Virus record (IMG/VR): IMGVR_UViG_3300045988_137874
Coordinates: 1-49,655 of that record
Length of the DNA: 49,655 bases
Reading direction: 5' to 3' (one strand)
Source: a virus
A program made the translations under genes and the position numbers. Positions 3,712 through 40,830 of the stretch are shown here, in pieces. Position 1 is the first letter of the stretch, and every line of letters begins with the position of its first letter. The notes below the pieces were generated by a model that saw only the letters and a list, made by a program, of their open reading frames with translations, had not been told where the DNA came from and ran no database searches.

Positions 3712-6700
3712 ATGAAGTTTTTAGAAGATTTTAATATCAAGAAATACGTGAAACCAAAAAAGAAGACCTCTAAACCACAGGGGTCTTCTTCTATTACTTA
3801 TACAAAACCTTTACCTAAAGGACCTATCCCAGTAAAGAAAGTAGTTCCAGATAAGATACCTACAAAACCTTTACCTACTACAAGCTCTAACAAAAGTTCT
3901 ATTGTAACAAAACCATTTTTTAATATTCCTATCCAGCCAGCACTACCTAGCCCAACAGCAATTAAGGCAAGACACAATGAGTTTGTAAAAGCTAACGCTA
4001 GAGCTAATAGAGCAATAAGTGATTTTAAATCTAATAACGTAATTGCTAATGCTACCTCTGGAATATTTAAAGGTGTAGAGTTTAATAAAAGAGTAGCACC
4101 TTTTATAGACACACGCCCTCAAGCAGTTAGAGATTTTAAAGTAAAGAACTATGCTTTCAGGAAGAATCCTATATTCAAATGGTACGAAAAGAAAGTACCC
4201 AACGTAGGAGAGCGTAGGTCTGGTACAGGAGCGTTTAGTAATAACAGTTATGTCAGAAACTTTACTACAGGACTATTTAAAGTATTAAGTTCTGATGCTG
4301 ACCCTAGAGGTATGCTCTCTGATCCTACTAGACGTAAGATACATGAAATGCAGAGAGCTAATCAAGCTAAAGCTCTACGTGCGTTTACTAAAGGTACTGG
4401 TGATTTAATAGCGGATACTATTATACGTCCATTCTATCAGAACGCATGGCAACAGGCAGAGCTTAAAGACAGGCTTAAACTACGTGAGCGTAAAATGAAT
4501 GAGCTCTATGGTTTAAATAGAAAGCAGCAAACATACTATGTAGAGGATGATAAGGGACGTGTATATGCTATTAAAGGTAGTAAAAATGGCGGTGACACTT
4601 ATAGTTATATTGATAGCAACGGAAAAGCGTTAAGTTTAGATATAACTGCACTGCCTAAAGATAGGGTAAACACATATAAGAGTATAGGGCTTATTCCTAG
4701 AGATAAAGTATTTCGTGTTAAAGATGGAGACCAGTTCCTCTCACAGCTACTAGACCCTAACTATAATTCAGGACTTCTTGCTAGAGACAGCAAGGGGCTC
4801 CCTTATATTTCTAATAAAGGGCTTAAACAGTATCTGGAGAATAACGGAGTAAGAAGTAATAGCACGTCTCTATTTGAAGCTATAAGCCCAAAACGTAGAG
4901 CAGATGATTTAATGATGCAGAGATATCTAGTTAAGTCTGCTGATGATTATGTTCAGAATAAATACTTTGGCGGTTATCCTCAAATGAGTACACGCTCTAT
5001 AGGAGCTAATCTTGCTATTAACTTTTTAGGACTAGGATTAAATATTATTAACAGACCGCAGCAAGGTGTGTCTGCTTATATCTTAGGTAAGAAAGAAGGA
5101 AAGACTGCGTCACAGATACGTAAAGATATGTATGCTGGATTTGTTGAGGGTAAGGATACATCCTTTACAGAATACTATCTTACTAAAAAAGATAAGCATC
5201 CTTACTTAAAAGGATTACTCTTTGATAGTATTTCAGACCCACTACTCTTTACTGACTTTATAGCTAAAGGTGGTGCAGGTGTAGCTAAAGGTATAACAAA
5301 GGCTTCTGTTAAATCCGAAATAACAGAGCGTAGTTTGCGTGAGGTTACAAGTAAGTATCTAGGAGGTGCTAGACTTCTTAATAAAAATGAAGGATTAACA
5401 TTTAAAGAAAGTCTACACAGTGTATTTGAAACACACAAACTAGGTACAGTTCATCAAACTAGAGGCGTTTATTCCAGAACCCTAGGTAGACTTAAAGGTG
5501 TGCAGATGACAGCTGATGCTTTAGATAATACTCTACCTAAAGCTCTACTGCCTAACCGTACTAAACGTCAGCTTATCAATACAATGGTTACTAATCCTAA
5601 ACAGGTAAATAAAAACTGGATTGCTAATGTACTACATGAAGCTGGATTTAGAAATAACCTTAAAGAAGATTTAGCAGATGCAATCTATGATAGCTACAGA
5701 ACTAGCAGACTTGTGACTAACACAGCTAGAGCTAATAAGATTGCAGACTCTACATCAGGAGCTTATAAGGTTTATAAGAAGTTTAAAGCCTTTGGAGAAG
5801 AAATAGACAGAGTAGATACTGCACTCACTAAAGCAGCGTTCCCAGTATTTACTGGAACTGTAAAAGGAACTAAAAAAGTAGTAAGAGCTATCAAGGCTTC
5901 TGAATTAAAGTCTTTTGTAGAAAAAGCAAAAGCACTTAAACAGATGCCTCTTTCTGATGTGTTTAAAAGTGATGAGCTTTTAGACCTAACTAAACGTAGA
6001 GCTGTTAAACAGGTAGATAAAGCAGTAGAGCCTTTAGCCAAAAACCACAAACTCTCTATGGAGCTACTTAATGAAGAAGCTGAAAAAGTTGTAGCAGCTA
6101 AAAGATATGGACAGTTTGGTAACACAGATAGTCTAGCTGACCTTATTACTGCTAGAGACAGTCAGCTCATAGATACTTTAGACAATATTCAGACCGCTGT
6201 TTCATCTAAAGAAAATGGTTATGGAACAGCTATGCGTATTATTAAAGATACTTATGATGACGCAGCAGATGTAACTTCTGTACATGAGTTTCTAGATAAC
6301 GCTCTACAATCTAATGATAACTTCCGTGAAGGACTTGTTTACGTAACTGACGACTCAGAGCGTAAAACTTTAAGTACACTCCTTAACGCTAGAGAAAATC
6401 AGATATATAAAACACAGCGTGTTTTAGATAATACTGAGGCTACAAAGCGTTTAAAGGATTTAGCACAGTTTACTAACATAGCTAAACAACAGGTACGCTC
6501 TGTAGAAAATTACACTGCTCTTGAAAAATATTTAGTTGAGAGCATAGAGCAAGCACACAACGCTACACATTATGTAGATACACATTTACAGGAGCTTGTT
6601 ACAAAACGTATAGATGAGGTTAAGGAACTACTACGTAGTGATGCTACAACTAAAGAGTTTAACCACACTATTAACCAGATTATAGGAGATGTTAAATCAA

Positions 6701-9700
6701 CCGCTAGTCAGCTCAAGACTCTAAAGAAAGAGTCTAAAGCTGTATCTATTAGTTCGTTCTTTTCTAAATTCAATAAAGTAAAAGAAGAGCTTGGAGCAAA
6801 GTCAGTTAAAGGTACGTTCTATAAAGATAATACTATAGAGCGGGTACTTAAAGATAAAGCTACAGCAAATGCATTTACTACTTTAACAGATATTTCTGAT
6901 GAGTATATAAGCGTTGTGTCTGGTTTAAAACAGTATTTACCTGAGTATCTGCATAGCGCTTTAGAAAGTGTTACGGATGTTAATGTAGATGATTTAGCAT
7001 TACAAACTGCAAAACGTAAAGCATTTCGCAGAGGAGAAGATATAGAAAAAGCAGTAAGCAGTGATATCAAATATATAGGACTCTCTGATTTCCCTAATGG
7101 AATTACAGACCTCATGCAGACTCTAGAAACGCAAGACTTTAAAAAGTTAAGCATACTATTAAACCTAGACGCCAATAGTAATATGGTTACTTTTGTAAAG
7201 CACCTAGATAGTTATATTGAGGAAAGCGTTTCTGAAGCTATAGATACACTACGCCTTATAGATTCTAAAACAGGGGCACCTCTAGCTAATTATCTAGCTG
7301 ACGTAGAGAGCACGCTGATTAAAACTAGAAATGCTGCAAAGTATGAGGACATTACTCTAGACCAGTTCACAACAGTAAGAGCTATTAAAGCTAATGCAGC
7401 ACAACTAGAAGCTACAGCACAAGACATCTATAAACAGAATAAGCATTTATTTAAAACGGGAGATTACTATTTAGAAAGAGTAGACCGCCTAATTAAATCT
7501 GAAATGCTTGATAATATTATAGAGTCTTACAGATTAGCTGATGATTATAAAACTGCCACAACTGTAGAGCAGTTAGCAACTTTTGCTGATGATATAGCTA
7601 AAAAGAAAAAAGCTAATGCACTGCTATCATCTTCATTAGAAGAAGCAGAATCTGCATTATCTCCAGAGCTATATAACATTTATCGTGATGCTTTATTTGA
7701 TGCACGTGATTTAGGACATAGTGCTATGGAGCACCCAGAATTTCTGGCTCCTGATTTTGTAGATCACGTTATAGAACAGCACTACTATCAGTATGCAAAA
7801 GCTAACTACAACATAGATAAAACCATAGGTGACTTGTACTCATTTAGTAAATCAGACCTGTCTAAAAAATATGATATAGACAAAGAGATACTAGATAGAT
7901 TATCTATAGGACATACTGCTGGTATAGACACGTACCGTTCTATCTTAACTAATATAGTACATGACCCTGAAAGTTTTGGTGATTTAATTGAACGTGCTAA
8001 AGCAGGCAGAGATGTATTTATATTTGATACAGAAACACTAGGTCTTAATACTAAACGAAATACTAACCATGTGTTCAGTATGGGTTTGTATAAATTAGAC
8101 CCAGAGCGTTGCAGTTTACTTAAATATGATAAGGAGCTAGAAAGATACACTAGCGAGAGTATCAATGAGTTTATGCGTGCTTTACTAAAAGATGCTGATT
8201 CTGGCAATGGATATAAAGAAATCTTAAATAAGATTCCTAATTACTTGATTGATAATGGGTGGCATCCGGATACGTCTTTCATGGATATTGCTACATTTAA
8301 AAAGATGTATGGTCATGAAGGCTATAGAATAGAAAATGATGTATTCGCTAATAACATTGTAAATACTATGCAGGAGATGCAGGGTACTCCCACATTAGAT
8401 TTACACAATGTTGTATTGTGCGGATTTAACAACCATGGATTTGATAATGTAGTTCTAGCTAATAACTGCCCAGAGATTGCAGCACTATTCAGAGATGTAC
8501 CGCAGAATATAGATATGCTAGTTAACATCAAAGCTAAACACGGTTTAATTATCTCGGATAAAGATAAGAATATAATAGGCAATCTATACAATAGTCTTTT
8601 ATCTGCACTGCATGATACAGATATAGAGAAGTTTAAGTATGCTTATCCAAGTAGACTTATAGATAGCTATGATAGATTTTATAGCACACTTCAGCGTTTA
8701 GGACACAGTGCTACAAGTCTTGACGTTGCTGTTGCACATGGAACAGATGGTACTCAGTATGCCTCTGCTTTAGATACTCTATTTAAAAACACGCCAGAGA
8801 GTATAGACCTTAATCTAGTTGCTAGTGAACTCCGAGAACAGAAGTTCCTACTGAAGTCTATTAACCATCTTAAAGATGATTCTCTAATTGTAGATCACGT
8901 CTTTAATCTGATTCCTAGTAACGAGCGTGCTTGGGAAACAGGTTATCTAGTTATGAAACTAGAGAATCCTAAACTAACTAGAGCAGAGTACGAAGCACTG
9001 TATAAATCTGGGGAACTTGCTAAATACGAAACTACAATTTCTAATTGGTTCCATATCCTAGACAGTAGCCCGGAGATTGATGTGCTTAAATTAACTCCAG
9101 AAGAGTTTATAGCTAAAGCAGATGAGCTTCGTGCAGCAGCAGATGTTATGACTGGTGGACAAACAAGTAACATCATCAGATGGATTAATGGTGTAGCTGA
9201 TGGAGGTTACTCCTATTTCCAAACACTAGCTGTACAGAATAAAGTAAATAAGAACATGCTAGACTGGTTTGGACATGTGATGAATAACTATCACGCTATA
9301 GAGACATACAGACAGCTTACTGCTAATATTCAAAATAATCTCAGACACAACGCTGATGATATATTTGATATAGACAACAGAATGTTACTAACAGGCATAG
9401 CATGGCGTGAGCTTAAAGATTATTGTATTGCACGTCCAGAACTCGCTAGTGCACTCTATATTTTTAATATAGATTTTGATGCACGCACAGTGAGTGAAAA
9501 GTTTGCAATTCTTGAAGAATTAATTATGGGTAAAAAGTACGGTATGCGTGAGACACTGTTTGGTACTTCTGACAGTGCAGTAAGGTTACTTCCGTCTGCA
9601 TACTTTGATTTTTCAGAACACACTGTAGACGTAATAAACTACATATTTAATACACGTAAACATAATAATTATTATCTCTTTGATAAAGAGATAGGTTTCT

Positions 9701-12700
9701 TTACTAGAAATGCAAAGGGAGCTGCGTATGAGATAGCTAGTGAATTAGAACGTGTTAAGTATGATACAGATGCTTTTGAGGAGTTTGCAGAAAGACTCTC
9801 TGGAATAACTGGAGGTGCTTCTGTAGAAAAACACACTATGGCTGTAGCACTACAACCTATTAATAATTTACGTAAGCAAATAGTAAGAATACTTAATAGT
9901 ACGGATGCAAAAAACACAATCACAAACCTTTACTATGATTTACAGCAAATAAAAAATGTTTGGGACGAAGTACATCACACTAGGGTTAAAGCTCTTGTAT
10001 CCGATATGCTTCAGAATGAAGACGCTATCTTAGAGCATCTAATCACGCCTGACTTTAACGGTATGATGTTCCTGCGTTTCTCTCCTGATGATGATAACAT
10101 CAAGCTAGTAGACCAGCTATTATCAGGAACACACCCTAACAGCAAATACCTACAAGTGCGTTATTTAGAAAAAGATGAGGTTGTCGCTGTAACTCTAAAT
10201 AATTTGTGTGACCTAGATGATAAAGCACTACATCTACTCGACACAGGAAAAACCATACAGCGAAATAACATAATAGGAAGGAGTATGCCTACTGAATTAC
10301 TTAATACATTTAAAAAGCAAATAGATAAGCTAGATACTCTAGCACCTGATTCTGTATTAAGACTTTACTATGAGTCATTACAGAATCTAGCAGCATATAG
10401 CAAACACAACTTTAGAGATTACACGCACGGGTTACTCAATGTAGAAAAGATAGACCAGTTACGTGAAGTCTTTGATGTAGTTAATATGATGGATTTAGAT
10501 AAGTTTGGTATGCAGACTATAGATGGATTCGTAAGTGCAGGTTCTTACTTAACACTAGAACCACCTAAGGCAGTTAATGGTGTTAAGTTCTATAACAATC
10601 CATTACTCACAGCCGAGACATTATTAAAACGTAATGCAGAGCAAGCTCTTGATAGTCACACTACTGTTGCTTACTTCTTACGTAATGAAGATCTTAACTC
10701 TTTAAATAAATTTGATTTATCTGATAAAGAGTGGTTTAGAGTATTAGACCAGCTAGAGGATTCCTTTGTTGTTTGTGCTATGGGTACAGACAACAAGAAT
10801 AAAAAGTATTTAAGTAAGTTAGAGTCACAAATTAAAGAAGCTAAAAAGGCTGATGACGTTAAGACACTAGAGAAGTTAGGTGAAGAGTATAGAGCTTATA
10901 ATCCAGTACAGCTTAAATCCTTTGAAATAAAATCTTCGAGGGATTTACAAAGAGCTAAAGAAGCTAATGCAGTTCTAGTCCCTAGAGTTGTGTATGAAAC
11001 ACTCTACGGACACGTGAATAACTTTACACCAACCAATCCTATACTGCGTGGTTACAACAGATATGTAACTATGATGAAAGCGTTTTATATCTCTACGCTA
11101 GGTACAGCCATGCGTAACTACATAGACGAAACCATCAAGACCTATATAGATGTAGGTTGGGAAGGTGTACCTATTGTGCATAGAGCTAGATTTCAGGCTA
11201 TGGCGGACCTATCTGATTATAATCAGATTATGGATGCTATTAAGAAAGACCTCAATACAGGACAACTTATTAAGGGTAAACTTAATTCAGCACAAGCTAG
11301 AGCACACCAGAGCCTAATACAAAAAGGTTTTGCAGATACACCATATTATTTTAATATCCCTGTATCTGATGCACAGAAGTATTATGGTTATTTAGCTGAA
11401 GCTGGAATACTACCTAAACACCTCACTGAACGTATGGATGCAAGTAACTTCTTACGTATGCACGCATTTATGCTAGAGGGTGCATCTGGTGGTACTCAGG
11501 CTGGAGAAATACAAGCACGTGCATTAGCACACTCTATCCCTGAACTAGAGGGTGTTGCTGCTAGAAACAAAGGTGTGTTTGGAACTCTAGGTGCTTTTCT
11601 GAAAATGCCTGATAAAGATTTAGACTCCTATGTATCCATGGGTAACTATCTCTTTAGTAAAGGTGTTTCAGCAGCACTAACTCCAATGGCTTATACAGAG
11701 CAGATTACAAGACTTACACATATGTACACTCTTGAGGAGCTAGGGATAGGTAAAATAGAAGCGTTCTCCAGAATATCTAAAACACATTTCAATTATGATG
11801 TTAAAGATAGAGCAGCAGTTTATGCACAGCTTCTGTTCCCATTCTTTAACTTTACTAAACTAAATATAGACTACTGGATGAACGCATGGACTAAAGACGC
11901 ACACTCTATTCATAACCTACTCAGGCTAAACCAGCAGAACCTTAAAGAGGCTCTGGATGATAACTATGAGCGTACAAGAAATGGACAGTGGGTTGATATG
12001 TCTTATCTTAATCATGCTATGGCAGGTAACCCTAGGATACCTAACCCAGCACAGAATGAGGGACAGGCTGCGTGGTTAAAGTTAAATCCATCATTCTATG
12101 ATGCGTATAACTTCCTACTCGATCCTATGAATCAAGGTATGCAGGATATATTCAGTCCAATTCAGAATGTACTCCAGGATAGACACTTCTTTGATGGTGC
12201 TATTAAAGCAGGTATCTTTAACCAAGGTTATGGTGGAAATGGCTTAATGGATTTCTTACCGCTGATAGGTTCTACTATATTACCAATGCATGAGAATAAA
12301 CTCAGGTATATAGATAAAACCTTTACAGAGTATAGAAACGATACTTTCGCCCAGCTATTAAAATCACCCGGCTCATTTGCACAGCTTCCTACAATCCTTG
12401 CTTTTTCAAAGATAGACTTTGGAGAGGATTATGAGAAGTTTAATAAGTTCTTAAATGCTAATGGTTATGCTTACGATTTCTACACTCGTCAGATAAAACC
12501 AATTAAGGACTGTGTGGCTAGAGATAGTAAAGAGTTATCTATGTATATGTACAAAAAGTATGGGTTAGTATATGACTTCATTACTAAAACATTTGTACCA
12601 GCGTATCTATCCAAGGACCCTGTGACTCGAAATGTAAGTTTTAAAACACCGCATAGTCAAGCACAGTGGTCTGATATACAAGCACTTGCTAAACTCTATC

Positions 12701-34941: not shown

Positions 34942-35481
34942 TTACTTATTTGCTAGAGCATTATCTCTAGCTATTAAAGCATCTGCTCTAGCCTGTCTGG
35001 TAAAGTCTACCTTGACATATTCTTTACCTTCCTTACTAACCTCATGAGTTAGTAGGGCTATTGCAGTCTTATCACTTCCTTCGTGATATAACTGCTCTAG
35101 GGAATTTACCCTGAGTTGGTCTAATAGACCTTTTAACATCAGAGGTAAGTGCTTACGCACATCCTCTGGTAATTTTGTGAAGAACACTACCTCATTGTAG
35201 TGTTCATCTGTTATGAGGTTTTTAGCCTCAAGTCTGAACTTGAGACCTCTAACCTTAGCTGTGTTAACGAACTCTACAGCTTTGTACTGTAGTTTGAGAG
35301 CTAGAAACTCTGCTTCTGGCTCCAGTAGCTCCGTCATTGAAACATCTATTTTGATGTCTCCATACTGCTGGAAGAATAGTTCCATTGAATTAACTTGCTG
35401 TGTCTGTGGCTTATTAGTCATAGGTGCCTCCTTTGCCATCTCATTAGAATTAACGTTCTTAACTGTTTTAATGTTTGCCAT
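34942..35481 (-). CDS. early protein, paralogue of 32080..32556 (function unknown)
   Basis: It is the first gene of the leftward arm, has an AGGAGG RBS, and shares N- and C-terminal similarity with the 158-aa protein. Confidence 0.6.
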   Translation of the reverse strand: MANIKTVKNVNSNEMAKEAPMTNKPQTQQVNSMELFFQQYGDIKIDVSMTELLEPEAEFLALKLQYKAVEFVNTAKVRGLKFRLEAKNLITDEHYNEVVFFTKLPEDVRKHLPLMLKGLLDQLRVNSLEQLYHEGSDKTAIALLTHEVSKEGKEYVKVDFTRQARADALIARDNALANK

Positions 35482-35523
35482 GATATTTACCTCCTATCTG
35501 GCTAATAAAATAAAATATAATCT

Positions 35524-35540
35524 AGCTCACGTATGGAGCT
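35524..35540 (-). promoter_or_regulatory. hairpin-motif site G (AGCTCCATACGTGAGCT on the minus strand)
   Basis: It lies about 45-60 nt upstream of the ATG at 35481. The 5-bp stem is AGCTC/GAGCT, and the CCATACG core is shared with site C. Confidence 0.35.
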
Positions 35541-35648
35541 TGCGTAATATGTGGCGGCGACTGTATGACATGGGGGTCGGGTTTAAAAATCTATATATAA
35601 GGTTATATTTATATATGTATGTAGTTACCTTTATGTTTGTGTGTTTCT

Positions 35649-35750
35649 AGTAAAACACCACAAAATTTAAAAAAGTGGCACAGAGTAAAACACCATCCAG
35701 AATTTAAAAATTTCTCAAGGAGTAAAACAACATAAATTTTAAAATCCCAC
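35649..35750. repeat. three tandem direct repeats AGTAAAACA[CA]CA-N3-5-AATTTAAAA, spaced 35 and 37 bp
   Basis: The copies start at 35649, 35684 and 35721 in the divergent early/late control region. Confidence 0.7.
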
Positions 35751-35784
35751 ACCCCCTCCCACCTAAAAGCCCTCCCCCTCACCC
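35746..35784. other. C-rich tract (G-rich on the minus strand) with quadruplex/i-motif potential
   Basis: The tract reads CCCACACCCCCTCCCACCTAAAAGCCCTCCCCCTCACCC. Six runs of at least 3 C occur within 39 nt of otherwise AT-rich intergenic DNA. Confidence 0.4.
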
Positions 35785-35792
35785 TAAAAACG

Positions 35793-35801
35793 TGTTATAA
35801 T
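35793..35801 (+). promoter_or_regulatory. extended -10 promoter element TGTTATAAT for the rightward arm
   Basis: A perfect TATAAT with a TG at the extended -10 position lies about 25 nt upstream of the ATG at 35826. The -35 element is poor. Confidence 0.5.
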
Positions 35802-35825
35802 ACCCACATATTAAGGGGGTATATT

Positions 35826-36221
35826 ATGAAAATCACAATTACAGAAACAAACGGACAGCTAGATTTCCAGCCAGAAGGCGATATTAACTTCGAGGATGGG
35901 ATCACCATGCTTCTAACTGCAGTATTAGGTCAGGCTAACAGCCTATTTGCTGCAGCAGAACAGGATGGAATGGATGCAGAAGGAGTTCAGTGCCTAAAAG
36001 AGGGCGTATATGACCGCTTCAACTACGCATTTGCTAGGGTCCTGGACGAGATTCTACCACCATCTAAAGAGTTTACGGAGAATCTAACTGCAGAAGCTAT
36101 CGTAAGAGCGGAAAATGAGCTGATTCAGGAAGCCTACGACCAGCTTTCGGAGGAAGATAAGGCTACACCTGTAGAATTTCCAAAGGCACCTGTAGAAATG
36201 GTAGAGGAAGAAGATGCTTAA
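35826..36221 (+). CDS. acidic hypothetical protein (small terminase candidate by position only)
   Basis: 131-aa ORF with an AAGGGGG RBS that overlaps the terminase start by 8 nt. It has no recognisable DNA-binding motif. Confidence 0.5.
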   Translation: MKITITETNGQLDFQPEGDINFEDGITMLLTAVLGQANSLFAAAEQDGMDAEGVQCLKEGVYDRFNYAFARVLDEILPPSKEFTENLTAEAIVRAENELIQEAYDQLSEEDKATPVEFPKAPVEMVEEEDA

Positions 36222-36475
36222 AGACATTGACCACTTCCTTGCAGAGGAAGATTTAGGTTTAGACGAGGTAGATCTATTAGCAGAGAGGATGCAGAGGTGT
36301 CCTCGCTGCGGAGCTCCTTGGCAAACTACTTTAGCCTTAAACGAAGGTCCGTCTGAATTTTGGAAAGAGTGTAGTAACCCGAAGTGCAATACGTACCTAA
36401 ATACGTATATGCCTCAGGCACACCAGTTCGAGTTCCACGAGGACGGGCATAGGTTTAAAGCTAACTTCGGAGGGT
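36214..36475 (+). CDS. terL: terminase large subunit, exon 1
   Basis: A zinc-ribbon-like segment CPRCGAPW...CSNPKCNTY is followed by ...HRFKANFGG. The track ORF stops at TAG 36475-77 in the middle of what should be the Walker A loop. The T at 36475 is the predicted last exon nucleotide. Confidence 0.8.
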
Positions 36476-37283
36476 AGAAAATCCGTAGCCCTCGGTAAAT
36501 TCGGCAAAATCGGTGGAAGACTAGAACAGTTAATACCGAGGTAACTAGCACCTTAACAAGTGTTAGCACCGTAACGCATAGGCGTTGAAACTCACAGAGA
36601 ATATAACACGCCCACGAGTGCCGAACTGTTATGTAGCTTGACTCTACAAAACATAATTGTTACACTTAAAATAAAAAAGGCAAAAGCTAAAAGGAGACAA
36701 TTATGTTTAAGGATGTCAAAGGATTTGAAGGACTTTATCAGGTAAATGAAGAAGGTGTAATAGTAAGTACCCCTAGAAATGGGAATGGATATAAGGAACA
36801 CATTATGAGCCATTCTACAGATTCAGACGGGTATGCGGTGTGTAAACTACGTAATAAAGATAAGGTTATTACTAAAAAGATACACAGAGCTGTTGCTGAA
36901 GCCCATCTTCCTAATCCAGATAATAAGCCTCAGATTAACCACAAGGACGGAAATAAAAAGAACAACCACATAAGCAACCTAGAATGGGTGACTGCTTCTG
37001 AAAATATTAGACACGCTAGACAGTTAGGCTTACAGAAGACGCAAGGAGAAAAAGCTGTAAGACAGGTTGATAAACAAACAGGTGCCACACTAGCTGTGTT
37101 TAGGAGTATGAAAGAAGCAGAGAGACAAACAGGCATAGGTTGGACTGGTATTTCCGCAACTGTACGAGGAGTACGTAAAAGTGCAGGTGGTTATTTCTGG
37201 GAACTACATACAGAAAATATATGCTGAACTATATGGGGACATATAGAGCTATAGGATAAAAAGCCTATAGGGTAACAACATTG
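36476..37283 (+). mobile_element. group I intron (808 nt) carrying an HNH homing endonuclease ORF
   Basis: P1: exon GAGGGT (36470-75) pairs with intron GCCCTC (36488-93), with a U-G wobble at the splice site. P10: intron CCGT (36483-86) pairs with the 3' exon ACGG (37284-87). The intron ends in G (37283). Joining gives GGG-TAC-GGT-AGT-GGT-AAG-ACT, which is G-Y-G-S-G-K-T, in frame. Confidence 0.8.
36703..37227 (+). CDS. HNH homing endonuclease (NUMOD4-like N-terminus, HNH_3 core, C-terminal NUMOD1/IENR-like helix)
   Basis: The N-terminus is FEGLYQVNEEGVIVS. The HNH core is INHKDGNKKNNHISNLEWVTASEN. The C-terminus is FRSMKEAERQTGI. It has an AAGGAGA RBS and lies wholly inside the intron. Confidence 0.85.
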   Translation: MFKDVKGFEGLYQVNEEGVIVSTPRNGNGYKEHIMSHSTDSDGYAVCKLRNKDKVITKKIHRAVAEAHLPNPDNKPQINHKDGNKKNNHISNLEWVTASENIRHARQLGLQKTQGEKAVRQVDKQTGATLAVFRSMKEAERQTGIGWTGISATVRGVRKSAGGYFWELHTENIC

Positions 37284-38710
37284 ACGGTAGTGGTAAGACT
37301 TTAACCTCCAGACAGGAGATTTATAAACACATTTTCCTAACTCCAAATGGGACGGGAGTTATTGGAGCTAATGTAAGTTCGCAGTATGAGCAGACAATTA
37401 AGAGGGAAATAGAAGCAGATATCCCTAAAGCGTTTATAGCCAAGGTTAGTACCCAGAAGAACTACTACGAGTTTAAGAACGGGTACAGACTTCTGTTTAG
37501 ACCTTTTGACGATCCAGATAAACTGCGTTCTTATAATGTAGATTTGTTTGTAATTCTGGAGGCATCTGAAGTTAAGCAGGCTAGTTTCACGCAGCTAAAA
37601 ACGAGACTACGTAATAAGGCAGCTATGCTTCAGAAGAAGGATGAGGACGGGTCACTACTCTTTAGAAAAGCCAAGAACGGAGCGAAGATTCCTGTAATTG
37701 AACAGGAGTGGCTTGAGGGGATTATTGAGAGTAATCCGGACGCAGGATGGATTAGAGACGAGGTGCTTTTAAACTCCGAGGAGATATATAAGCACGGGGA
37801 TGTTCTAGATGAGATTCATATAGAGGAGTCTAGGAAAGACCCTATGATTTCTACGCACATAACTGCGACATCAGCTAACGAGTTTCTTCCGGCAGACTTT
37901 ATAGAGCAGAACACAAAGAACAAACCGTTATGGTGGGTTAACAGGTTTATCTACGGGAGCTTTCTTTACGCAGAGGGGCTTGTATATCCAAACTACGCAA
38001 AGTGTTTTGTAGATGACTATGACATACCTCCGCAGTGGAAAAGAGTTATAGCATTTGACTACGGGCTTGTAGACCCATCTGTTTTCTTATTCTGTGCTGT
38101 AGATATGGAGCACAACAAAGCAGTCATCTACAAAGAGGTAAGGATTAATGACAAGAACGTAGAAGAACTGGCTATGCTTTTCCACCATGAGTGTAGGGAC
38201 ATTCCTATGGGAGGTATGTGGATTCCACCTATCATTGACCCGAAGTCTGGACCTAAACGAGATTATGAGAAGAAGTCTTTAGCAGATCACTTCCTAGATT
38301 ACGGAATAGCTTTTCAGCCGGGAACAGTAAACGTTGAGGCTAGAATGTTTAGGCTTAATACTTACATTGAGTCAGGAAGACTGGAGATGTTTAACTCTTG
38401 CGTAGACTTACGAGAGGAGTTATCTAAATACAGATTCCAAAAAGACTCTGGGGCAGAGTTCGGATTTACTAACAAACCTATAGATAAAAACAACCACGCC
38501 ATTAACGCACTTGAGTGGATTACTATGGAGTTACCTAGTGACCCCCAGAATTTAATAAATGGAGTGTACGCTAAAACAGGAAATAGGCTTGACACCGCAA
38601 GTGCAAGTGACGAAGATAAGGTTGCTTTTTATGCACTTACAGATGACGAGGATTTAGAGTATAATACTCTTGTAAAGGAAACACCGTTCGAAATAACGGA
38701 GTGGTATTAA
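37284..38710 (+). CDS. terL: terminase large subunit, exon 2
   Basis: The frame is open upstream of the track start back to 37271. It reads (Y)GSGKTLTSRQE (Walker A) and DLFVILEASE (Walker B). The RNase-H-like nuclease half shows VIAFDYGLVDPSV and NNHAINALEW. Confidence 0.85.
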
Positions 38711-38732
38711 CGCCAGCTAATAAGGAGGAACT

Positions 38733-39041
38733 ATGGTTTATGCAAACACTATTATATTAATTATCATTGCTATGTGCTTATTGGTAGGGCTTGTTATGTT
38801 AGCTACTGTTAGTTTACACTTAGCCAGAACCTGTCATATATTAGATAGAGTAACTAAGGCATCAGAGGAAGCACAGATGCGACCTCAAAAGATATGTACG
38901 TTAGAATCTATAAATGAAACTACACCTGAAACAGAAGAAGCTAACGATAAGCTCAATGAGGATAAGCCAGAGTTTGAGGGACTTATTGAAGTTATTAACG
39001 ACATTATGTTAGGAGATGAGCATGAGCAAAGCAGAAGATAA
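38733..39041 (+). CDS. small membrane protein (N-terminal TM, acidic tail)
   Basis: 102-aa ORF with an AAGGAGG RBS and the TM helix ANTIILIIIAMCLLVGLVMLATV. Confidence 0.5.
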   Translation: MVYANTIILIIIAMCLLVGLVMLATVSLHLARTCHILDRVTKASEEAQMRPQKICTLESINETTPETEEANDKLNEDKPEFEGLIEVINDIMLGDEHEQSRR

Positions 39042-40830
39042 GAAGCGTGAAGAGCGTGAAGCTGACAACAAAGTAGTGAAAGAGTGCAGAGGGTACTGGG
39101 AAAGATGTGCACCGCTATACAGCAGAGCTATTAAGAAGATTCAGCTTTTAGACGCAACCGACAACGGAGATATGTGGAGAGCACTTAAAGCAAAGTTCCC
39201 AAACTTTCAGGTTCTTCCGGACTCTAACTGGGTTAGCTACATTAAGAATAATATCCTAGCGTCACTGTACACTACGACAAAGAGTGCAGAGCTGACCTTT
39301 ACATCTGAACTAGATAAGGAAGCTATTACGCACATTAATGTAGCACTAGAGCACATCTGGGATACTGACAGCGTAGGGTACTATCAGTTCCTAGCAGGAG
39401 AGCGTGCAGCACTAACCAACATGGGAATTACACAGGTAGGTTGGGACGACAGTTTTAGAGAAGGCAAGCGTAAAGGTAAGGTTGCCTTTAAGAACATTGA
39501 CCCGATTAACTTTAGGAGGGATCCTTACGCAACTGATTTAGACTCTGCGAAGTGGTGTGCTATTGTTGAGGTATACGACAAGTATTACTTTAAGGCACAC
39601 CCACTATATAAGGAAGCGTTTAATAAGTACGCAGGTAAGGATGACGTAGCAACAACCTTTAGCAAACCTGAGTACATTTCAGGACCAGTTAAGACTGGAG
39701 GCGAAAATCACCACGCACTACTTATTTACTGGGTTAAGCAGGACAACGGTAAGATTAATGAGTACCACATTTTAGATAATGAATATCTACTACATAAGAA
39801 GGAAGACATTAGACCAAGTAAATTCCCATTCGCAATTCTGTACTGTAACTTACCTAGTGCAGGTCTTATAGGTACATCAGAGCCAGCAAAGATATTTGCA
39901 AACTCTGTAGCTTATAACACACTTAACTCTGTAGCACTTACTGCGGAGTATAAGAACCAGAGACCTCCTAAATTTGTAAGCACACAGTCAGGACTTAACG
40001 TTCAGGCATTTGCTAAACACGGAGATGAAGCAGACAGAACATTTATTGTAAATGGAGATGCTTCTAAAGCTGTACACTACCACCAGTTCCCTACTGTATC
40101 TAATACACTTGATAAGGAACTCATGAATCTAGCTAAAGACATTCAGGACGTTTCAGGAGTAGATGGTAGATATACAGGTAGAGACACAGGAAGTATTATT
40201 ACTACAGGCGGAACAGAGGAGATGCTTAACAGAGTTACGCTCGTAGACACTCCGAAGATTATGCTATTTGAGCGTTACGCTAAACAGCTAACTGATTTAG
40301 TTCTGCGTAATATGATTGAGTTCTCACCAGCTAGGACTTATATTACAAAAGAAAAAGGAACTAACGAGTACGTAGAGCTAACTATAGACTTCCCAGAGAT
40401 TCCGGATTCAGTTGCACTGAACTACAACATTCAGATTAGTTCAGAGCTTCCAAAGAATAAGCAGAGAGTTATGGCGTGGGCTAACACGCTTATGGAAAAA
40501 CAAATGCAGTATCAGGAAGCTAACATGCAGGTGGATCTAATTACTGCAGAAGAGTGGCTCATGTATCAGGACGTACCTTATAAAGAACAACTCCTAGAGC
40601 GTATGGGTATTCAAAGAGAAACTTCTATCCTAGAAGAAACTGCACAGAGCATCTATGAATATGGAGAAATGATTGACCAAGGTATGGCTCCTGAAGATGC
40701 ACTACTTCAGACCGCACAAGGCGTCATGAATAGAAGGCAAGGACAGCCAACACCATTAGAAGAGAACACTGCACTAACACCACAGACCTCACTCTCTCCA
40801 GATAATTTAACTGGAGGGGTTGAGATATAG
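39016..40830 (+). CDS. portal protein (putative)
   Basis: 604 aa, placed between terminase and scaffold/capsid with an acidic C-terminal tail. The call rests on size and synteny only. Confidence 0.6.
   Translation: MSMSKAEDKKREEREADNKVVKECRGYWERCAPLYSRAIKKIQLLDATDNGDMWRALKAKFPNFQVLPDSNWVSYIKNNILASLYTTTKSAELTFTSELDKEAITHINVALEHIWDTDSVGYYQFLAGERAALTNMGITQVGWDDSFREGKRKGKVAFKNIDPINFRRDPYATDLDSAKWCAIVEVYDKYYFKAHPLYKEAFNKYAGKDDVATTFSKPEYISGPVKTGGENHHALLIYWVKQDNGKINEYHILDNEYLLHKKEDIRPSKFPFAILYCNLPSAGLIGTSEPAKIFANSVAYNTLNSVALTAEYKNQRPPKFVSTQSGLNVQAFAKHGDEADRTFIVNGDASKAVHYHQFPTVSNTLDKELMNLAKDIQDVSGVDGRYTGRDTGSIITTGGTEEMLNRVTLVDTPKIMLFERYAKQLTDLVLRNMIEFSPARTYITKEKGTNEYVELTIDFPEIPDSVALNYNIQISSELPKNKQRVMAWANTLMEKQMQYQEANMQVDLITAEEWLMYQDVPYKEQLLERMGIQRETSILEETAQSIYEYGEMIDQGMAPEDALLQTAQGVMNRRQGQPTPLEENTALTPQTSLSPDNLTGGVEI

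What the first reader, a model, noticed from the sequence alone, without database searches (positions are those of the whole stretch)
36214..38710. Large terminase split inside its Walker A codons by an HNH-carrying group I intron
- The terminase ORF stops at ...KANFGG-TAG. It resumes, without a start codon, as ..GSGKTLTSRQE.. 808 nt later.
- The predicted P1 is exon GAGGGU paired with intron GCCCUC, with a U-G pair at the cleavage site.
- The predicted P10 is intron CCGU, immediately 5' of the P1 guide, paired with the first four 3'-exon nucleotides ACGG.
- The intron ends in a terminal G at 37283.
- The ligated exons read in frame as FGG-Y-GSGKT, a perfect P-loop.
- The intron carries a free-standing HNH/NUMOD endonuclease with its own RBS.
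- Insertion in the most conserved codons of an essential gene is the classic homing-site logic.
Basis: partly seen in the sequence, partly recalled or inferred. Interest (0 to 1): 0.7.

Follow-up and report, generated by a model that had tools for sequence, protein, structure and literature searches.

The report
HNH-carrying group I intron in terminase
The phage's DNA-packaging ATPase gene is interrupted, inside the codons of its ATP-binding loop, by an 808-base self-splicing (group I) intron that carries its own homing endonuclease gene; this is real and well supported, but it is a familiar kind of mobile element in phage genes.

Summary
The terL reading frame stops at 36475-36477 and resumes without a start codon at 37284. 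Removing 36476-37283 (808 nt) gives a 562-aa protein reading NFGG-Y-GSGKT.

- **Empty site.** An uninterrupted allele, 99% identical in protein, lacks exactly these 808 nt.
- **Endonuclease-less allele.** A third allele has a 235-nt intron with no endonuclease gene at the same site.
- **RNA fold.** The RNA belongs to a large phage intron family, found in at least 193 IMG/VR contigs. Its P3, P4, P6, P7.1, P8, P9 and P9.1 helices covary strongly. The P7 pseudoknot shows perfect two-pair covariation.
- **Rfam.** Rfam's group I model does not reach its threshold here (22 bits against 50). The proven T4 td intron also falls short (40 bits). Sister members of the family with a td-type P7 score 75-93 bits.
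- **Endonuclease.** The HNH gene resembles I-HmuI, sits in the P8 loop with its own ribosome-binding site, and is under purifying selection. Its stop codon lies in the 3' strand of P7.

Group I introns with HNH genes in phage terminase genes have been known since 1995 (phage LL-H) and have been shown to splice in other phages. This is therefore a new member of a known kind. Splicing and homing are inferred here, not shown.

The parts
36214..36475 (+). terL exon 1 (87 codons plus the first base of the Tyr codon). It encodes an N-terminal Cys4 motif and the first half of Walker A (NFGG).
   Evidence: ORF list and translation. Colinear with the uninterrupted allele L005.
36475..36477 (+). In-frame stop UAG spanning the 5' splice site. 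U36475 is the last exon base and AG are the first two intron bases.
   Evidence: Read directly from the sequence.
36476..37283 (+). Group I intron, 808 nt.
   Evidence: Exactly this stretch is missing from the intron-less allele. The 235-nt endonuclease-less allele sits at the same site. Fold supported.
36470..36493 (+). P1: exon GAGGGU (36470-36475) pairs with the internal guide GCCCUC (36488-36493), with U36475-G36488 at the cleavage site. The P10 guide CCGU (36483-36486) lies in the P1 loop.
   Evidence: Sequence. P1 also forms in the minimum-energy folds.
36500..36570 (+). P3 5' strand UUCGGCA (36500-36506); J3/4 AAA (36507-36509); P4 UCGGUG (36510-36515) with UACCGA (36534-36539); P5 ACU/AGU (36520-22/36528-30); P6 GGU/ACC (36540-42/36568-70); P6a CUAGCAC/GUGUUAG (36545-51/36560-66).
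   Evidence: Covariation on alignment A1: P3 97.8% of cells paired, P4 99.6%, P6/P6a 92.2%. Most pairs show compensatory changes.
36571..36625 (+). J6/7 GUAA (36571-74); P7 5' strand CGCAUA (36575-80); P7.1 GGCGU/ACGCC (36581-85/36608-12) with inner CUC/GAG (36591-93/36597-99); CACGAG (36613-18); P3 3' strand UGCCGAA (36619-25).
   Evidence: Compensatory changes in P7.1 occur among alleles of this same intron.
36626..36636 (+). P8 5' strand CUGUUAUGUAG (U36630 bulged). It pairs over about 570 nt with 37204-37213.
   Evidence: In all family members P8 directly follows P3' and directly precedes the conserved J8/7. Complementarity read. The long-range pairing in this window is inferred.
36691..36696 (+). 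Ribosome-binding site AAGGAG, 6 nt before the endonuclease ATG.
   Evidence: Sequence.
36703..37227 (+). HNH homing endonuclease gene (174 aa, I-HmuI-like) in the P8 loop. Its last codons overlap the P8 3' strand, J8/7 and the P7 3' strand; the stop UGA is at 37225-37227.
   Evidence: Pfam HNH_3, NUMOD4 and I-HmuI_NUMOD-like. PDB 1U3E at E 2e-12. PHROG 59 at 4e-46. Intact, with 22-29 synonymous against 3-7 nonsynonymous codon changes, in four diverged alleles.
37204..37283 (+). 3' core: P8 3' strand CUACAUACAG (37204-13); J8/7 AAAAUA (37214-19); P7 3' strand UAUGC(U)G (37220-26, U37225 bulged); P9 CUAUAUG/CAUAUAG (37229-35/37240-46); P9.1 CUAUAGG/CCUAUAG (37249-55/37264-70); tail GGUAACAACAUUG ending in the terminal G at 37283.
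   Evidence: 80-91% identical to the 3' ends of insertions in split tape-measure and terminase genes of many phages. P9 99.1% and P9.1 99.2% of cells paired, with covariation. P7 covariation.
37284..38710 (+). terL exon 2 (the last two bases of the Tyr codon, then GSGKT... through the stop). There is no start codon before TTG at 37544.
   Evidence: Pfam Terminase_3 and Terminase_3C.

Best explanation
An 808-nt mobile group I intron (36476-37283) interrupts the large terminase gene within the Tyr codon of its Walker A motif (GGYGSGKT).

Proposed mechanism:
1. terL is transcribed as one pre-mRNA.
2. The intron folds into a group I core: P1, no P2, P3-P9.1, an extra P7.1 hairpin and a P3/P7 pseudoknot.
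3. An external guanosine bound in P7 attacks after U36475, which forms the U-G pair of P1.
4. The terminal G (37283) then enters the same site, P10 aligns the 3' exon, and the exons are ligated to GGGU|ACGG. This restores a 562-aa TerL.
5. The P8 loop holds an I-HmuI-like HNH endonuclease gene with its own ribosome-binding site.
6. The enzyme probably nicks or cuts intron-less terL alleles of co-infecting relatives near the Walker A codons. Repair then copies the intron into the empty site (homing).
7. The endonuclease stop codon lies in the 3' strand of P7, and the ORF end covers the P8 3' strand and J8/7. Translation of the endonuclease and formation of the active ribozyme on the same RNA molecule should therefore be mutually exclusive.

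Shown here: the exact boundaries of the insertion, the three allelic states, the covariation-supported fold, and the endonuclease family together with purifying selection on it.

Inferred: self-splicing, endonuclease activity and target, homing, and the coupling between translation and splicing.
For: - **Exact insertion.** The uninterrupted allele P0001 (562 aa, 99% identical) is encoded by L005/L006. It aligns with the window with one gap of exactly 808 nt. Four further intron-less relatives are in IMG/VR (L206-L209).
- **Junction.** All 120 best homologues read NFGG[YF]GSGKT without interruption. The Pfam Terminase_3 match extends from profile positions 65-185 to 2-185 once the exons are joined.
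- **Exon 2 cannot stand alone.** It has no start codon for 87 codons.
- **Endonuclease-less allele.** A 235-nt intron sits at the same site (L061 = L212). It has 4 differences in the 5' 152 nt and none in the 3' 72 nt, and its fold z-score is -4.25.
- **Covariation.** On a sequence-only MAFFT alignment of 39 cores, 95.4% of cells pair, against 31-43% when partners are slid. 44 of 60 pairs show double changes, and 0 of 500 shuffles reach the observed values.
- **P7 pseudoknot.** CGCAUA with UAUGCUG occurs in at least 120 contigs and CGACUA with UAGUCUG in 73. The mixed combinations occur 0 and 0 times.
- **Link to accepted group I introns.** CGACUA/UAGUCUG is the P7 of T4 td. Family members with that P7 score 74.7-92.8 bits on Rfam Intron_gpI and align with the window core at 52-60% identity.
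- **Within-lineage compensation.** P7.1 and P9 show compensatory changes among endonuclease-bearing alleles of this same intron.
- **Endonuclease.** I-HmuI at E 2e-12, with the His and Asn of the HNH motif aligned. The ORF is intact and mostly synonymously diverged in four alleles.
- **Precedent.** Introns in terL splice in vitro and in vivo in Bastillevirinae (PMC11878797).
Against: - Rfam Intron_gpI is below its gathering score on the window (22.3 against 50). It gives no hit on the endonuclease-less allele or on 0 of 20 family members of the same P7 type.
- A sequence-only HMM of the family does not detect the T4 td core above shuffled controls.
- No RNA data were available, so splicing itself is unobserved.
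- The minimum-energy fold of the full intron pairs the P8 5' strand with the 3' splice-site region rather than forming the long-range P8.
- One allele (L211) has an uncompensated change in P8 (37209 U>C).
- Some phage terL introns in PMC11878797 did not self-splice in vitro.
Confidence: 0.9

Rival explanations
1. It is a group I intron but not autocatalytic in practice: splicing needs a host or phage protein, or the ribosome, as a cofactor.
For: In PMC11878797 several phage introns, including a terminase intron, spliced in vivo but not in vitro. Here P8 must close over about 570 nt. The minimum-energy fold prefers an alternative pairing of the P8 5' strand with the 3' splice site.
Against: The core is complete and strongly conserved. 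The endonuclease-less allele folds into most core helices without constraints (z = -4.25). Phage introns of this general type, such as T4 td, self-splice (established knowledge).
Confidence: 0.2
2. The intron splices, but the HNH gene is an inactive passenger and the element no longer homes.
For: No activity data exist. Intron-less, endonuclease-less and endonuclease-bearing alleles coexist among near-identical phages, as expected late in a homing cycle. The endonuclease-less allele shows that the endonuclease gene can be absent.
Against: The ORF is intact at 174 aa in five alleles that differ by about 7% in nucleotides, with 22-29 synonymous against 3-7 nonsynonymous codon changes. The HNH His and Asn positions align with I-HmuI. 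A ribosome-binding site is present.
Confidence: 0.2
3. There is no splicing: a free-standing HNH cassette has split terL into two separately translated pieces, or has made it a pseudogene.
For: Gene callers annotate the two halves as separate genes. Rfam gives no hit above threshold.
Against: - Exon 2 has no start codon or ribosome-binding site before TTG at 37544, so the P-loop half GSGKT could not be translated.
- Walker A would be cut in two.
- More than 1000 homologues are single proteins of 538-562 aa.
- The non-coding flanks of the insertion are a conserved, covarying RNA.
- The endonuclease-less 235-nt insertion at the same site has no other rationale.
- The element persists in several diverged, near-complete phage genomes.
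Confidence: 0.03

Closest known systems
Group I introns in phage terminase large-subunit genes: Lactobacillus phage LL-H (Mikkonen & Alatossava 1995, cited in PMC4299906), Bacillus phage Moonbeam (PMC4299906), and Bastillevirinae SIOphi and phiAGATE (PMC11878797)
   Same: Same host gene class (terL), same element type (a group I intron with an embedded homing endonuclease, often HNH), and the same logic of insertion in conserved codons. Splicing was shown experimentally for SIOphi and phiAGATE terL.
   Different: Different phage lineage: an uncultivated ~50-kb phage whose TerL is only 35% identical to the nearest isolate, Paenibacillus phage API480. Whether any of those introns belongs to the same RNA subfamily, or sits in Walker A, was not tested here. 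None appeared among the blastn hits.
T4 td intron with I-TevI (subgroup IA2, proven self-splicing)
   Same: - Extra hairpin(s) between P7 and P3'.
- J6/7-P7 (UAACGACUA) and J8/7-P7' (GAUAUAGUCUG, with a bulged U) are identical to the sister type of this family. They differ from the window by two compensated pairs.
- The endonuclease ORF runs into core sequence.
- The 3' tail has the form ...AACAUAAUG.
   Different: - td has P2, P7.1 plus P7.2, and P9.1/P9.2; the window has no P2 and a single compound P7.1.
- The td ORF is in the P6 region and encodes a GIY-YIG enzyme.
- Overall sequence similarity is undetectable with a family HMM.
- The subgroup assignment of the window intron is therefore tentative.
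I-HmuI (phage SPO1 DNA polymerase intron; PDB 1U3E)
   Same: Both are 174 aa and share NUMOD4, the HNH motif and the C-terminal NUMOD-like DNA-binding region. Both are encoded in phage group I introns.
   Different: The phmmer alignment covers residues 2-121 of the 174. The target gene differs (DNA polymerase against terL). I-HmuI is a strand-specific nickase, and whether this enzyme nicks or cuts is unknown.
Related introns in tape-measure and terminase genes of Staphylococcus phages 6ec and BE02, Clostridium phages phiCP13O and phiCD211, a crAss-like phage (cr7_1) and Mammaliicoccus phage phi116
   Same: Same ribozyme family, with 80-91% identity in the 3' 70 nt and the same helices.
   Different: - The endonuclease gene is absent, or sits in another loop: P5 in 6ec, BE02 and BMBtp13, and 5' of P3 in phi116.
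- In phi116 the endonuclease is of another family (LAGLIDADG).
- Host genes and insertion sites differ.
- In GenBank the split halves are annotated as separate CDSs, and none of these family introns carries an intron feature; phiCD211's misc_RNA Intron_gpI marks a different, adjacent element.

Membership tests
Group I intron | P1 helix between the 5' exon end and an internal guide, with a U-G wobble at the cleavage site | tested here: met
   GAGGGU (36470-75) pairs with GCCCUC (36488-93), with U36475-G36488 at the cleavage site. P1 also appears in the minimum-energy folds.
Group I intron | Terminal G at the 3' end, and a P10 pairing between the guide and the 3' exon | tested here: met
   G37283 is the last intron base. 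CCGU (36483-86) pairs with ACGG (37284-87). The boundary is fixed to within 1 nt by the intron-less allele.
Group I intron | Canonical helix order P3-P4-P5-P6-P7-P3'-P8-P7'-P9 with a P3/P7 pseudoknot, supported by covariation | tested here: met
   95.4% of cells paired against 31-43% in slid controls, and 44 of 60 pairs show compensatory changes. For P7, the matched types occur in at least 120 and 73 contigs and the mixed types in 0 and 0.
Group I intron | Match to Rfam RF00028 at its gathering score (50 bits) | tested here: not met
   - Window: 22.3 bits.
- Endonuclease-less allele: no hit.
- Family members of the same P7 type: 0 of 20.
- Control, T4 td: 40.3 bits, also below the gathering score.
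- Sister members with td-type P7: 74.7-92.8 bits, aligning to the window core at 52-60% identity.

The model is insensitive to this subtype, so this failure carries little weight.
Group I intron | Precise excision restores the host reading frame | tested here: met
   The ligated exons give a 562-aa protein with 6 substitutions relative to the uninterrupted P0001. The DNA gap is exactly 808 nt. This is a genomic inference, not RNA evidence.
Group I intron | Guanosine-dependent self-splicing | not testable with these tools
   Requires in vitro transcription and a splicing assay, or RNA data.
Subgroup IA (T4 td-like, IA2) | Additional pairing(s) P7.1/P7.2 between P7 and P3' | tested here: inconclusive
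   A covarying hairpin P7.1 (36581-85/36608-12), with an optional distal stem, lies between P7 and P3'. There is only one compound hairpin, not two. No subgroup-specific models were available.
Subgroup IA (T4 td-like, IA2) | Detectable sequence homology to td-type cores | tested here: not met
   nhmmer with the family HMM does not find the td core above 2000 shuffles. Only short motifs are shared: J3/4-P4, P4'-P6, J6/7-P7 and J8/7-P7'.
HNH homing endonuclease, I-HmuI type | HNH catalytic motif with flanking NUMOD DNA-binding modules, encoded inside an intron | tested here: met
   Pfam HNH_3 at 5.5e-11, NUMOD4 at 1.7e-7 and I-HmuI_NUMOD-like at 1e-3. 1U3E at E 2e-12, with the motifs NHKDGNK...N and ...EN aligned. 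The ORF lies wholly inside the intron.
HNH homing endonuclease, I-HmuI type | Site-specific nicking or cleavage of the intron-less allele | not testable with these tools
   Only indirect support: purifying selection on the ORF and the coexistence of empty and occupied sites.
Terminase large subunit (Pfam Terminase_3) | N-terminal ATPase with Walker A, and a C-terminal RNase H-like nuclease | tested here: met
   Spliced protein: Terminase_3 at 7.4e-11 (residues 79-299, profile positions 2-185) and Terminase_3C at 3.7e-5 (24.6 bits, just under its 26.7-bit cut-off). PHROG 2 at 1.8e-25. Walker A is GGYGSGKT at residues 86-93. The gene lies upstream of the portal and major head genes.

The most novel reading that the evidence does not exclude
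The intron belongs to a very widespread, largely unannotated phage group I subfamily.

- It was found in at least 193 IMG/VR contigs from two exact-match patterns, spread across Staphylococcus, Clostridium, Bacillus and crAss-like phages.
- The standard Rfam model misses it whenever P7 is CGCAUA/UAUGCUG.
- One conserved ribozyme scaffold has acquired different endonuclease genes (HNH, LAGLIDADG) in different loops (5' of P3, P5, P8).
- It has hit the Walker A codons of unrelated terminases at least twice (this window and Mammaliicoccus phi116).

In this one phage lineage all three stages of the homing cycle coexist: the empty site, the endonuclease-less intron and the endonuclease-bearing intron. 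That makes it a natural system for studying how an endonuclease gene invades an intron.
Probability: 0.45. Interest if true: 0.45.

Novelty: new member of a known kind. Interest (0 to 1): 0.3.

Why it matters
- **Annotation.** Gene callers split this terL into an 87-aa and a 361-aa gene, and Rfam's gathering threshold misses the intron. TerL-based phage detection, phylogeny and prediction of packaging strategy will therefore fail or be distorted for such genomes.
- **Evolution.** The coexistence of empty, endonuclease-less and endonuclease-bearing alleles in near-identical phages gives a clean natural example of the homing-endonuclease life cycle.
- **Regulation.** Placing the endonuclease stop codon inside P7 suggests built-in competition between endonuclease translation and splicing of an essential late gene.

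None of this changes current understanding of group I introns.

Tried and rejected
- **Rfam at gathering score, whole window:** 0 hits. In E-value mode there was only a 22.3-bit Intron_gpI match. Part of that match aligns the A-rich leader upstream of the endonuclease gene, and it vanishes on the endonuclease-less allele. I do not use it as positive evidence.
- **Family HMM (nhmmer) against T4 td:** no signal above shuffles. A firm IA2 assignment was therefore dropped.
- **PDB sequence search with the spliced TerL:** no hit.
- **Promoter and terminator scan of 35400-39100:** promoter-like sites are no more frequent than in shuffles (6 found, 7.7 expected). The two in the P8 loop upstream of the endonuclease gene (36638-36672) are therefore not evidence for a dedicated promoter.
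- **Minimum-energy folding of the full 808-nt intron:** it does not recover the long-range P8 and cannot represent P7. The fold rests on comparative evidence instead.
- **Second copy of the intron in the window:** only one exact match each to GTAACGCATAG and ATATATGCTGAAC.
- **Rejected alternatives:**
  - Intein: the insertion has in-frame stops.
  - Group II intron: no domain structure and no Rfam signal.
  - IStron: no transposase.
  - Assembly artefact: the same element occurs in several independent contigs.
- **Not built:** a covariance model of the family. The covariation counts and the Rfam bridge made it unnecessary.
Full report
**1. The observation**

The window sequence and ORF list show an ORF at 36214-36477 that ends ...KANFGG followed by TAG. 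A 174-aa ORF lies at 36703-37227. A long open frame runs to 38710, and its first possible start codon is TTG at 37544.

Joining 36475 to 37284 gives an in-frame 562-aa protein that reads ...KANFGG-Y-GSGKTLTSRQE.... The removed stretch is 36476-37283, 808 nt.

- GAGGGU (36470-75) is complementary to GCCCUC (36488-93), with U36475 opposite G36488.
- CCGU (36483-86) is complementary to ACGG (37284-87).
- One unpaired A (36487) separates the two guide segments.
- The last intron base is G37283.

**2. Is the insertion real and exact?**

A search of the protein database with the ligated protein returned 1118 relatives at E <= 1e-5.

- The best, P0001, is 562 aa and differs at 6 residues.
- All 120 listed homologues carry an uninterrupted NFGG[YF]GSGKT.
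- P0001 is encoded on ENA and Logan contigs (L005, L006) with the same gene neighbours.
- Aligning L005 with window 36214-38710 gives 92.5% identity and a single gap of exactly 808 nt between GGAGGGT and ACGGTAG.
- Because both the intron and exon 2 start with A, the boundaries could slide by one base. The U before the 5' splice site and the terminal G favour 36476-37283.

Pfam Terminase_3 covers profile positions 65-185 on exon 2 alone (35.5 bits). On the ligated protein it covers positions 2-185 (42.4 bits). The junction therefore lies inside the ATPase domain, and GGYGSGKT fits the Walker A pattern G-x4-GK[ST].

**3. Three allelic states**

An IMG/VR contig (L061 = L212) carries a 235-nt intron without an ORF at the identical site. 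It has 4 substitutions in the 5' 152 nt and none in the 3' 72 nt.

Close relatives in IMG/VR fall into three groups:
- four have an empty site (L206-L209);
- one has the endonuclease-less intron;
- three complete copies (L210, L211, L213) and one contig-truncated copy (L216) have the endonuclease-bearing intron. The complete ones are 796, 810 and 795 nt and about 7% diverged from the window.

The exact endonuclease protein of the window occurs on five contigs, one of them 49,746 nt long (L007).

Among the diverged alleles there are compensatory double changes:
- P7.1: 36583/36610 C-G to U-A, and 36585/36608 U-A to G-C;
- P9: 37235/37240 G-C to A-U.

**4. The RNA**

blastn shows that the last ~70 nt of the insertion are 80-91% identical to the 3' ends of insertions that split tape-measure or terminase genes. 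These occur in Staphylococcus phages 6ec and BE02, Clostridium phages phiCP13O and phiCD211, a crAss-like phage and others. The 5' core matches Mammaliicoccus phage phi116 and Bacillus phage BMBtp13.

I aligned 38 compact cores plus the window core with MAFFT, using sequence only. The interior of the window's P8 loop was removed first. I then counted pairs for a hand-drawn group I model:
- 95.4% of 2262 cells form standard pairs, against 31-43% when the 3' partners are slid by 1-3 columns.
- 44 of 60 pairs show changes on both sides.
- None of 500 shuffles reaches the observed values.
- P3, P4, P6/P6a, P7.1, P8, P9 and P9.1 are each 92-100% paired.

P7 was invariant in that set because the search pattern fixed it. 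Three further scans settle it:
- CGACUA with UAGUCUG occurs in 73 contigs.
- The two mismatched combinations occur in none.

The P3/P7 pseudoknot is therefore supported by a double compensatory switch. CGACUA/UAGUCUG, with its bulged U, is exactly the P7 of the T4 td intron.

**5. The Rfam test**

At gathering score the window has no Rfam hit. In E-value mode Intron_gpI scores 22.3 bits against a gathering score of 50. Controls:
- T4 td scores 40.3 bits, also below the gathering score.
- The endonuclease-less allele gives no hit at E <= 1.
- None of 20 family loci is found through its family intron.
- 4 of 20 loci of the sister type with td-like P7 score 74.7-92.8 bits at the family intron. 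Those four align with the window core at 52-60% identity, block for block.

The family is thus continuous with accepted group I introns. The failure on the window reflects the model's insensitivity to this P7 and J8/7 variant and to introns that carry ORFs. A sequence-only HMM of the family does not find td, so I call the intron IA-like, not IA2.

**6. Anatomy in the window**

| Element | Coordinates |
|---|---|
| P1 | 36470-75 / 36488-93 |
| P2 | absent |
| P3 | 36500-06 / 36619-25 |
| J3/4 (AAA) | 36507-09 |
| P4 | 36510-15 / 36534-39 |
| P5 | 36520-22 / 36528-30 |
| P6 | 36540-42 / 36568-70 |
| P6a | 36545-51 / 36560-66 |
| J6/7 (GUAA) | 36571-74 |
| P7 | 36575-80 / 37220-26 (U37225 bulged) |
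| P7.1 | 36581-85 / 36608-12 |
| P8 | 36626-36 / 37204-13 (10 bp, one bulge) |
| J8/7 | 37214-19 |
| P9 | 37229-35 / 37240-46 |
| P9.1 | 37249-55 / 37264-70 |
| Terminal G | 37283 |

P8 closes a ~570-nt loop that holds the endonuclease gene. Its long-range pairing is inferred from the family rule that P8 directly follows P3' and directly precedes J8/7.

P8 of the endonuclease-less allele (CUACAU-AUA-AUGUAG) is not colinear with the window's P8 strands. Gain or loss of the endonuclease gene was therefore not a clean loop insertion.

**7. The endonuclease**

- The ORF (36703-37227) has AAGGAG 6 nt upstream of its ATG.
- It matches HNH_3, NUMOD4 and the I-HmuI NUMOD-like domain, and PHROG 59.
- It matches I-HmuI (PDB 1U3E), also 174 aa, at E 2e-12, with the HNH His and Asn positions aligned.
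- In four diverged alleles it stays intact, with 22-29 synonymous against 3-7 nonsynonymous codon changes. This indicates selection for function.
- Its last codons overlap the P8 3' strand, J8/7 and P7'. The stop UGA (37225-27) includes the bulged U and the closing G of P7.

A ribosome finishing the endonuclease ORF must therefore unfold the catalytic core. This is an inference, in line with what is known for T4 introns.

**8. Context**

The upstream 131-aa ORF overlaps the terL start. Downstream lie a 102-aa ORF, the portal gene and the major head gene. The nearest isolate TerL is from Paenibacillus phage API480, at 35% identity. No second copy of the intron motifs exists in the window.

**9. 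Comparison with what is known**

- A group I intron in a terminase gene was reported for Lactobacillus phage LL-H in 1995 (cited in PMC4299906).
- The Moonbeam terminase has two such introns with endonuclease genes (PMC4299906).
- 5 of 52 Bastillevirinae terL genes are split, some introns carry HNH genes, and the SIOphi and phiAGATE terL introns splice in vitro or in vivo (PMC11878797).

The finding is therefore a new member of a known kind.

**10. Verdict**

Novelty is low.

Three aspects have modest extra value. The three-state polymorphism is a clean example of the homing cycle. The intron subfamily is large and is missed by Rfam. Related ribozymes have hit terminase Walker A codons more than once while carrying different endonucleases.

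Interest: 0.3.

Noticed in passing
L002 (Mammaliicoccus phage phi116) 1262-4236; putative intron 1526-2697: An unrelated-looking terminase gene is also split inside its Walker A codons (FIASRGLG | KSFLS). The insertion has a ribozyme core related to the window's, preceded by U and ending in G. It carries a LAGLIDADG endonuclease ORF (1575-2459) placed 5' of P3 instead of an HNH gene in P8. I could not identify its P1.
   Followed up: partly
window 36626-36660 and 37204-37213, compared with L061 (minus strand) 8952-9186: P8 of the endonuclease-less allele (CUACAU-AUA-AUGUAG) and the two P8 strands of the HNH-bearing allele (CUGUUAUGUAG ... CUACAUACAG) look strand-swapped rather than colinear. 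A local hairpin (36630-36657) could compete with the long-range P8. How the endonuclease gene was gained or lost is unexplained.
   Followed up: partly
window 36625-36634 with 37278-37288: In the minimum-energy fold of the whole intron, the P8 5' strand pairs with the 3' splice-site region (ACAUUG|ACGGU) instead of with the P8 3' strand. This could be a folding trap or simply a prediction artefact.
   Followed up: no
window 3712-13887 (+): A single ORF of 3391 aa, very large for a ~50-kb phage genome. It was not examined.
   Followed up: no
window 36298-36387 (+): TerL exon 1 encodes a Cys4 motif (CPRC ... CSNPKC) upstream of the ATPase domain. The only support is weak Pfam zinc-ribbon hits (E 0.05-0.06).
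   Followed up: no
L009 (phiCD211) about 2303-2864; L004 (BMBtp13) 542-760 and about 1083-2207: In both phages the tape-measure gene appears to hold two different group I introns. One belongs to the family described here. The other is of a type Rfam recognises: 97 bits in BMBtp13, and an annotated Intron_gpI feature in phiCD211. In phiCD211 the two are separated by a mini-exon of only a few dozen bases.
   Followed up: partly
L210 and L213, corresponding to window 36674-36688: Two endonuclease-bearing alleles lack 15 nt of the A-rich leader just upstream of the endonuclease ribosome-binding site. The leader is therefore dispensable or variable.
   Followed up: no
L013-L132 and L134-L205 (IMG/VR loci): Rfam RF00028 at gathering score finds none of 20 tested introns with P7 = CGCAUA/UAUGCUG. 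It finds 4 of 20 with P7 = CGACUA/UAGUCUG. A large phage intron clade is thus under-detected by the standard model, and the halves of split genes are annotated as separate CDSs in GenBank records (6ec, BE02, phiCP13O, TPWB06).
   Followed up: partly
L206 2750-2775: One intron-less relative reads GGAGGGTATGGTAGTGGAAAG at the empty site (TAT instead of TAC for Tyr, plus further changes). These changes would weaken P10 and might alter recognition by the endonuclease. It is a possible resistant allele.
   Followed up: no
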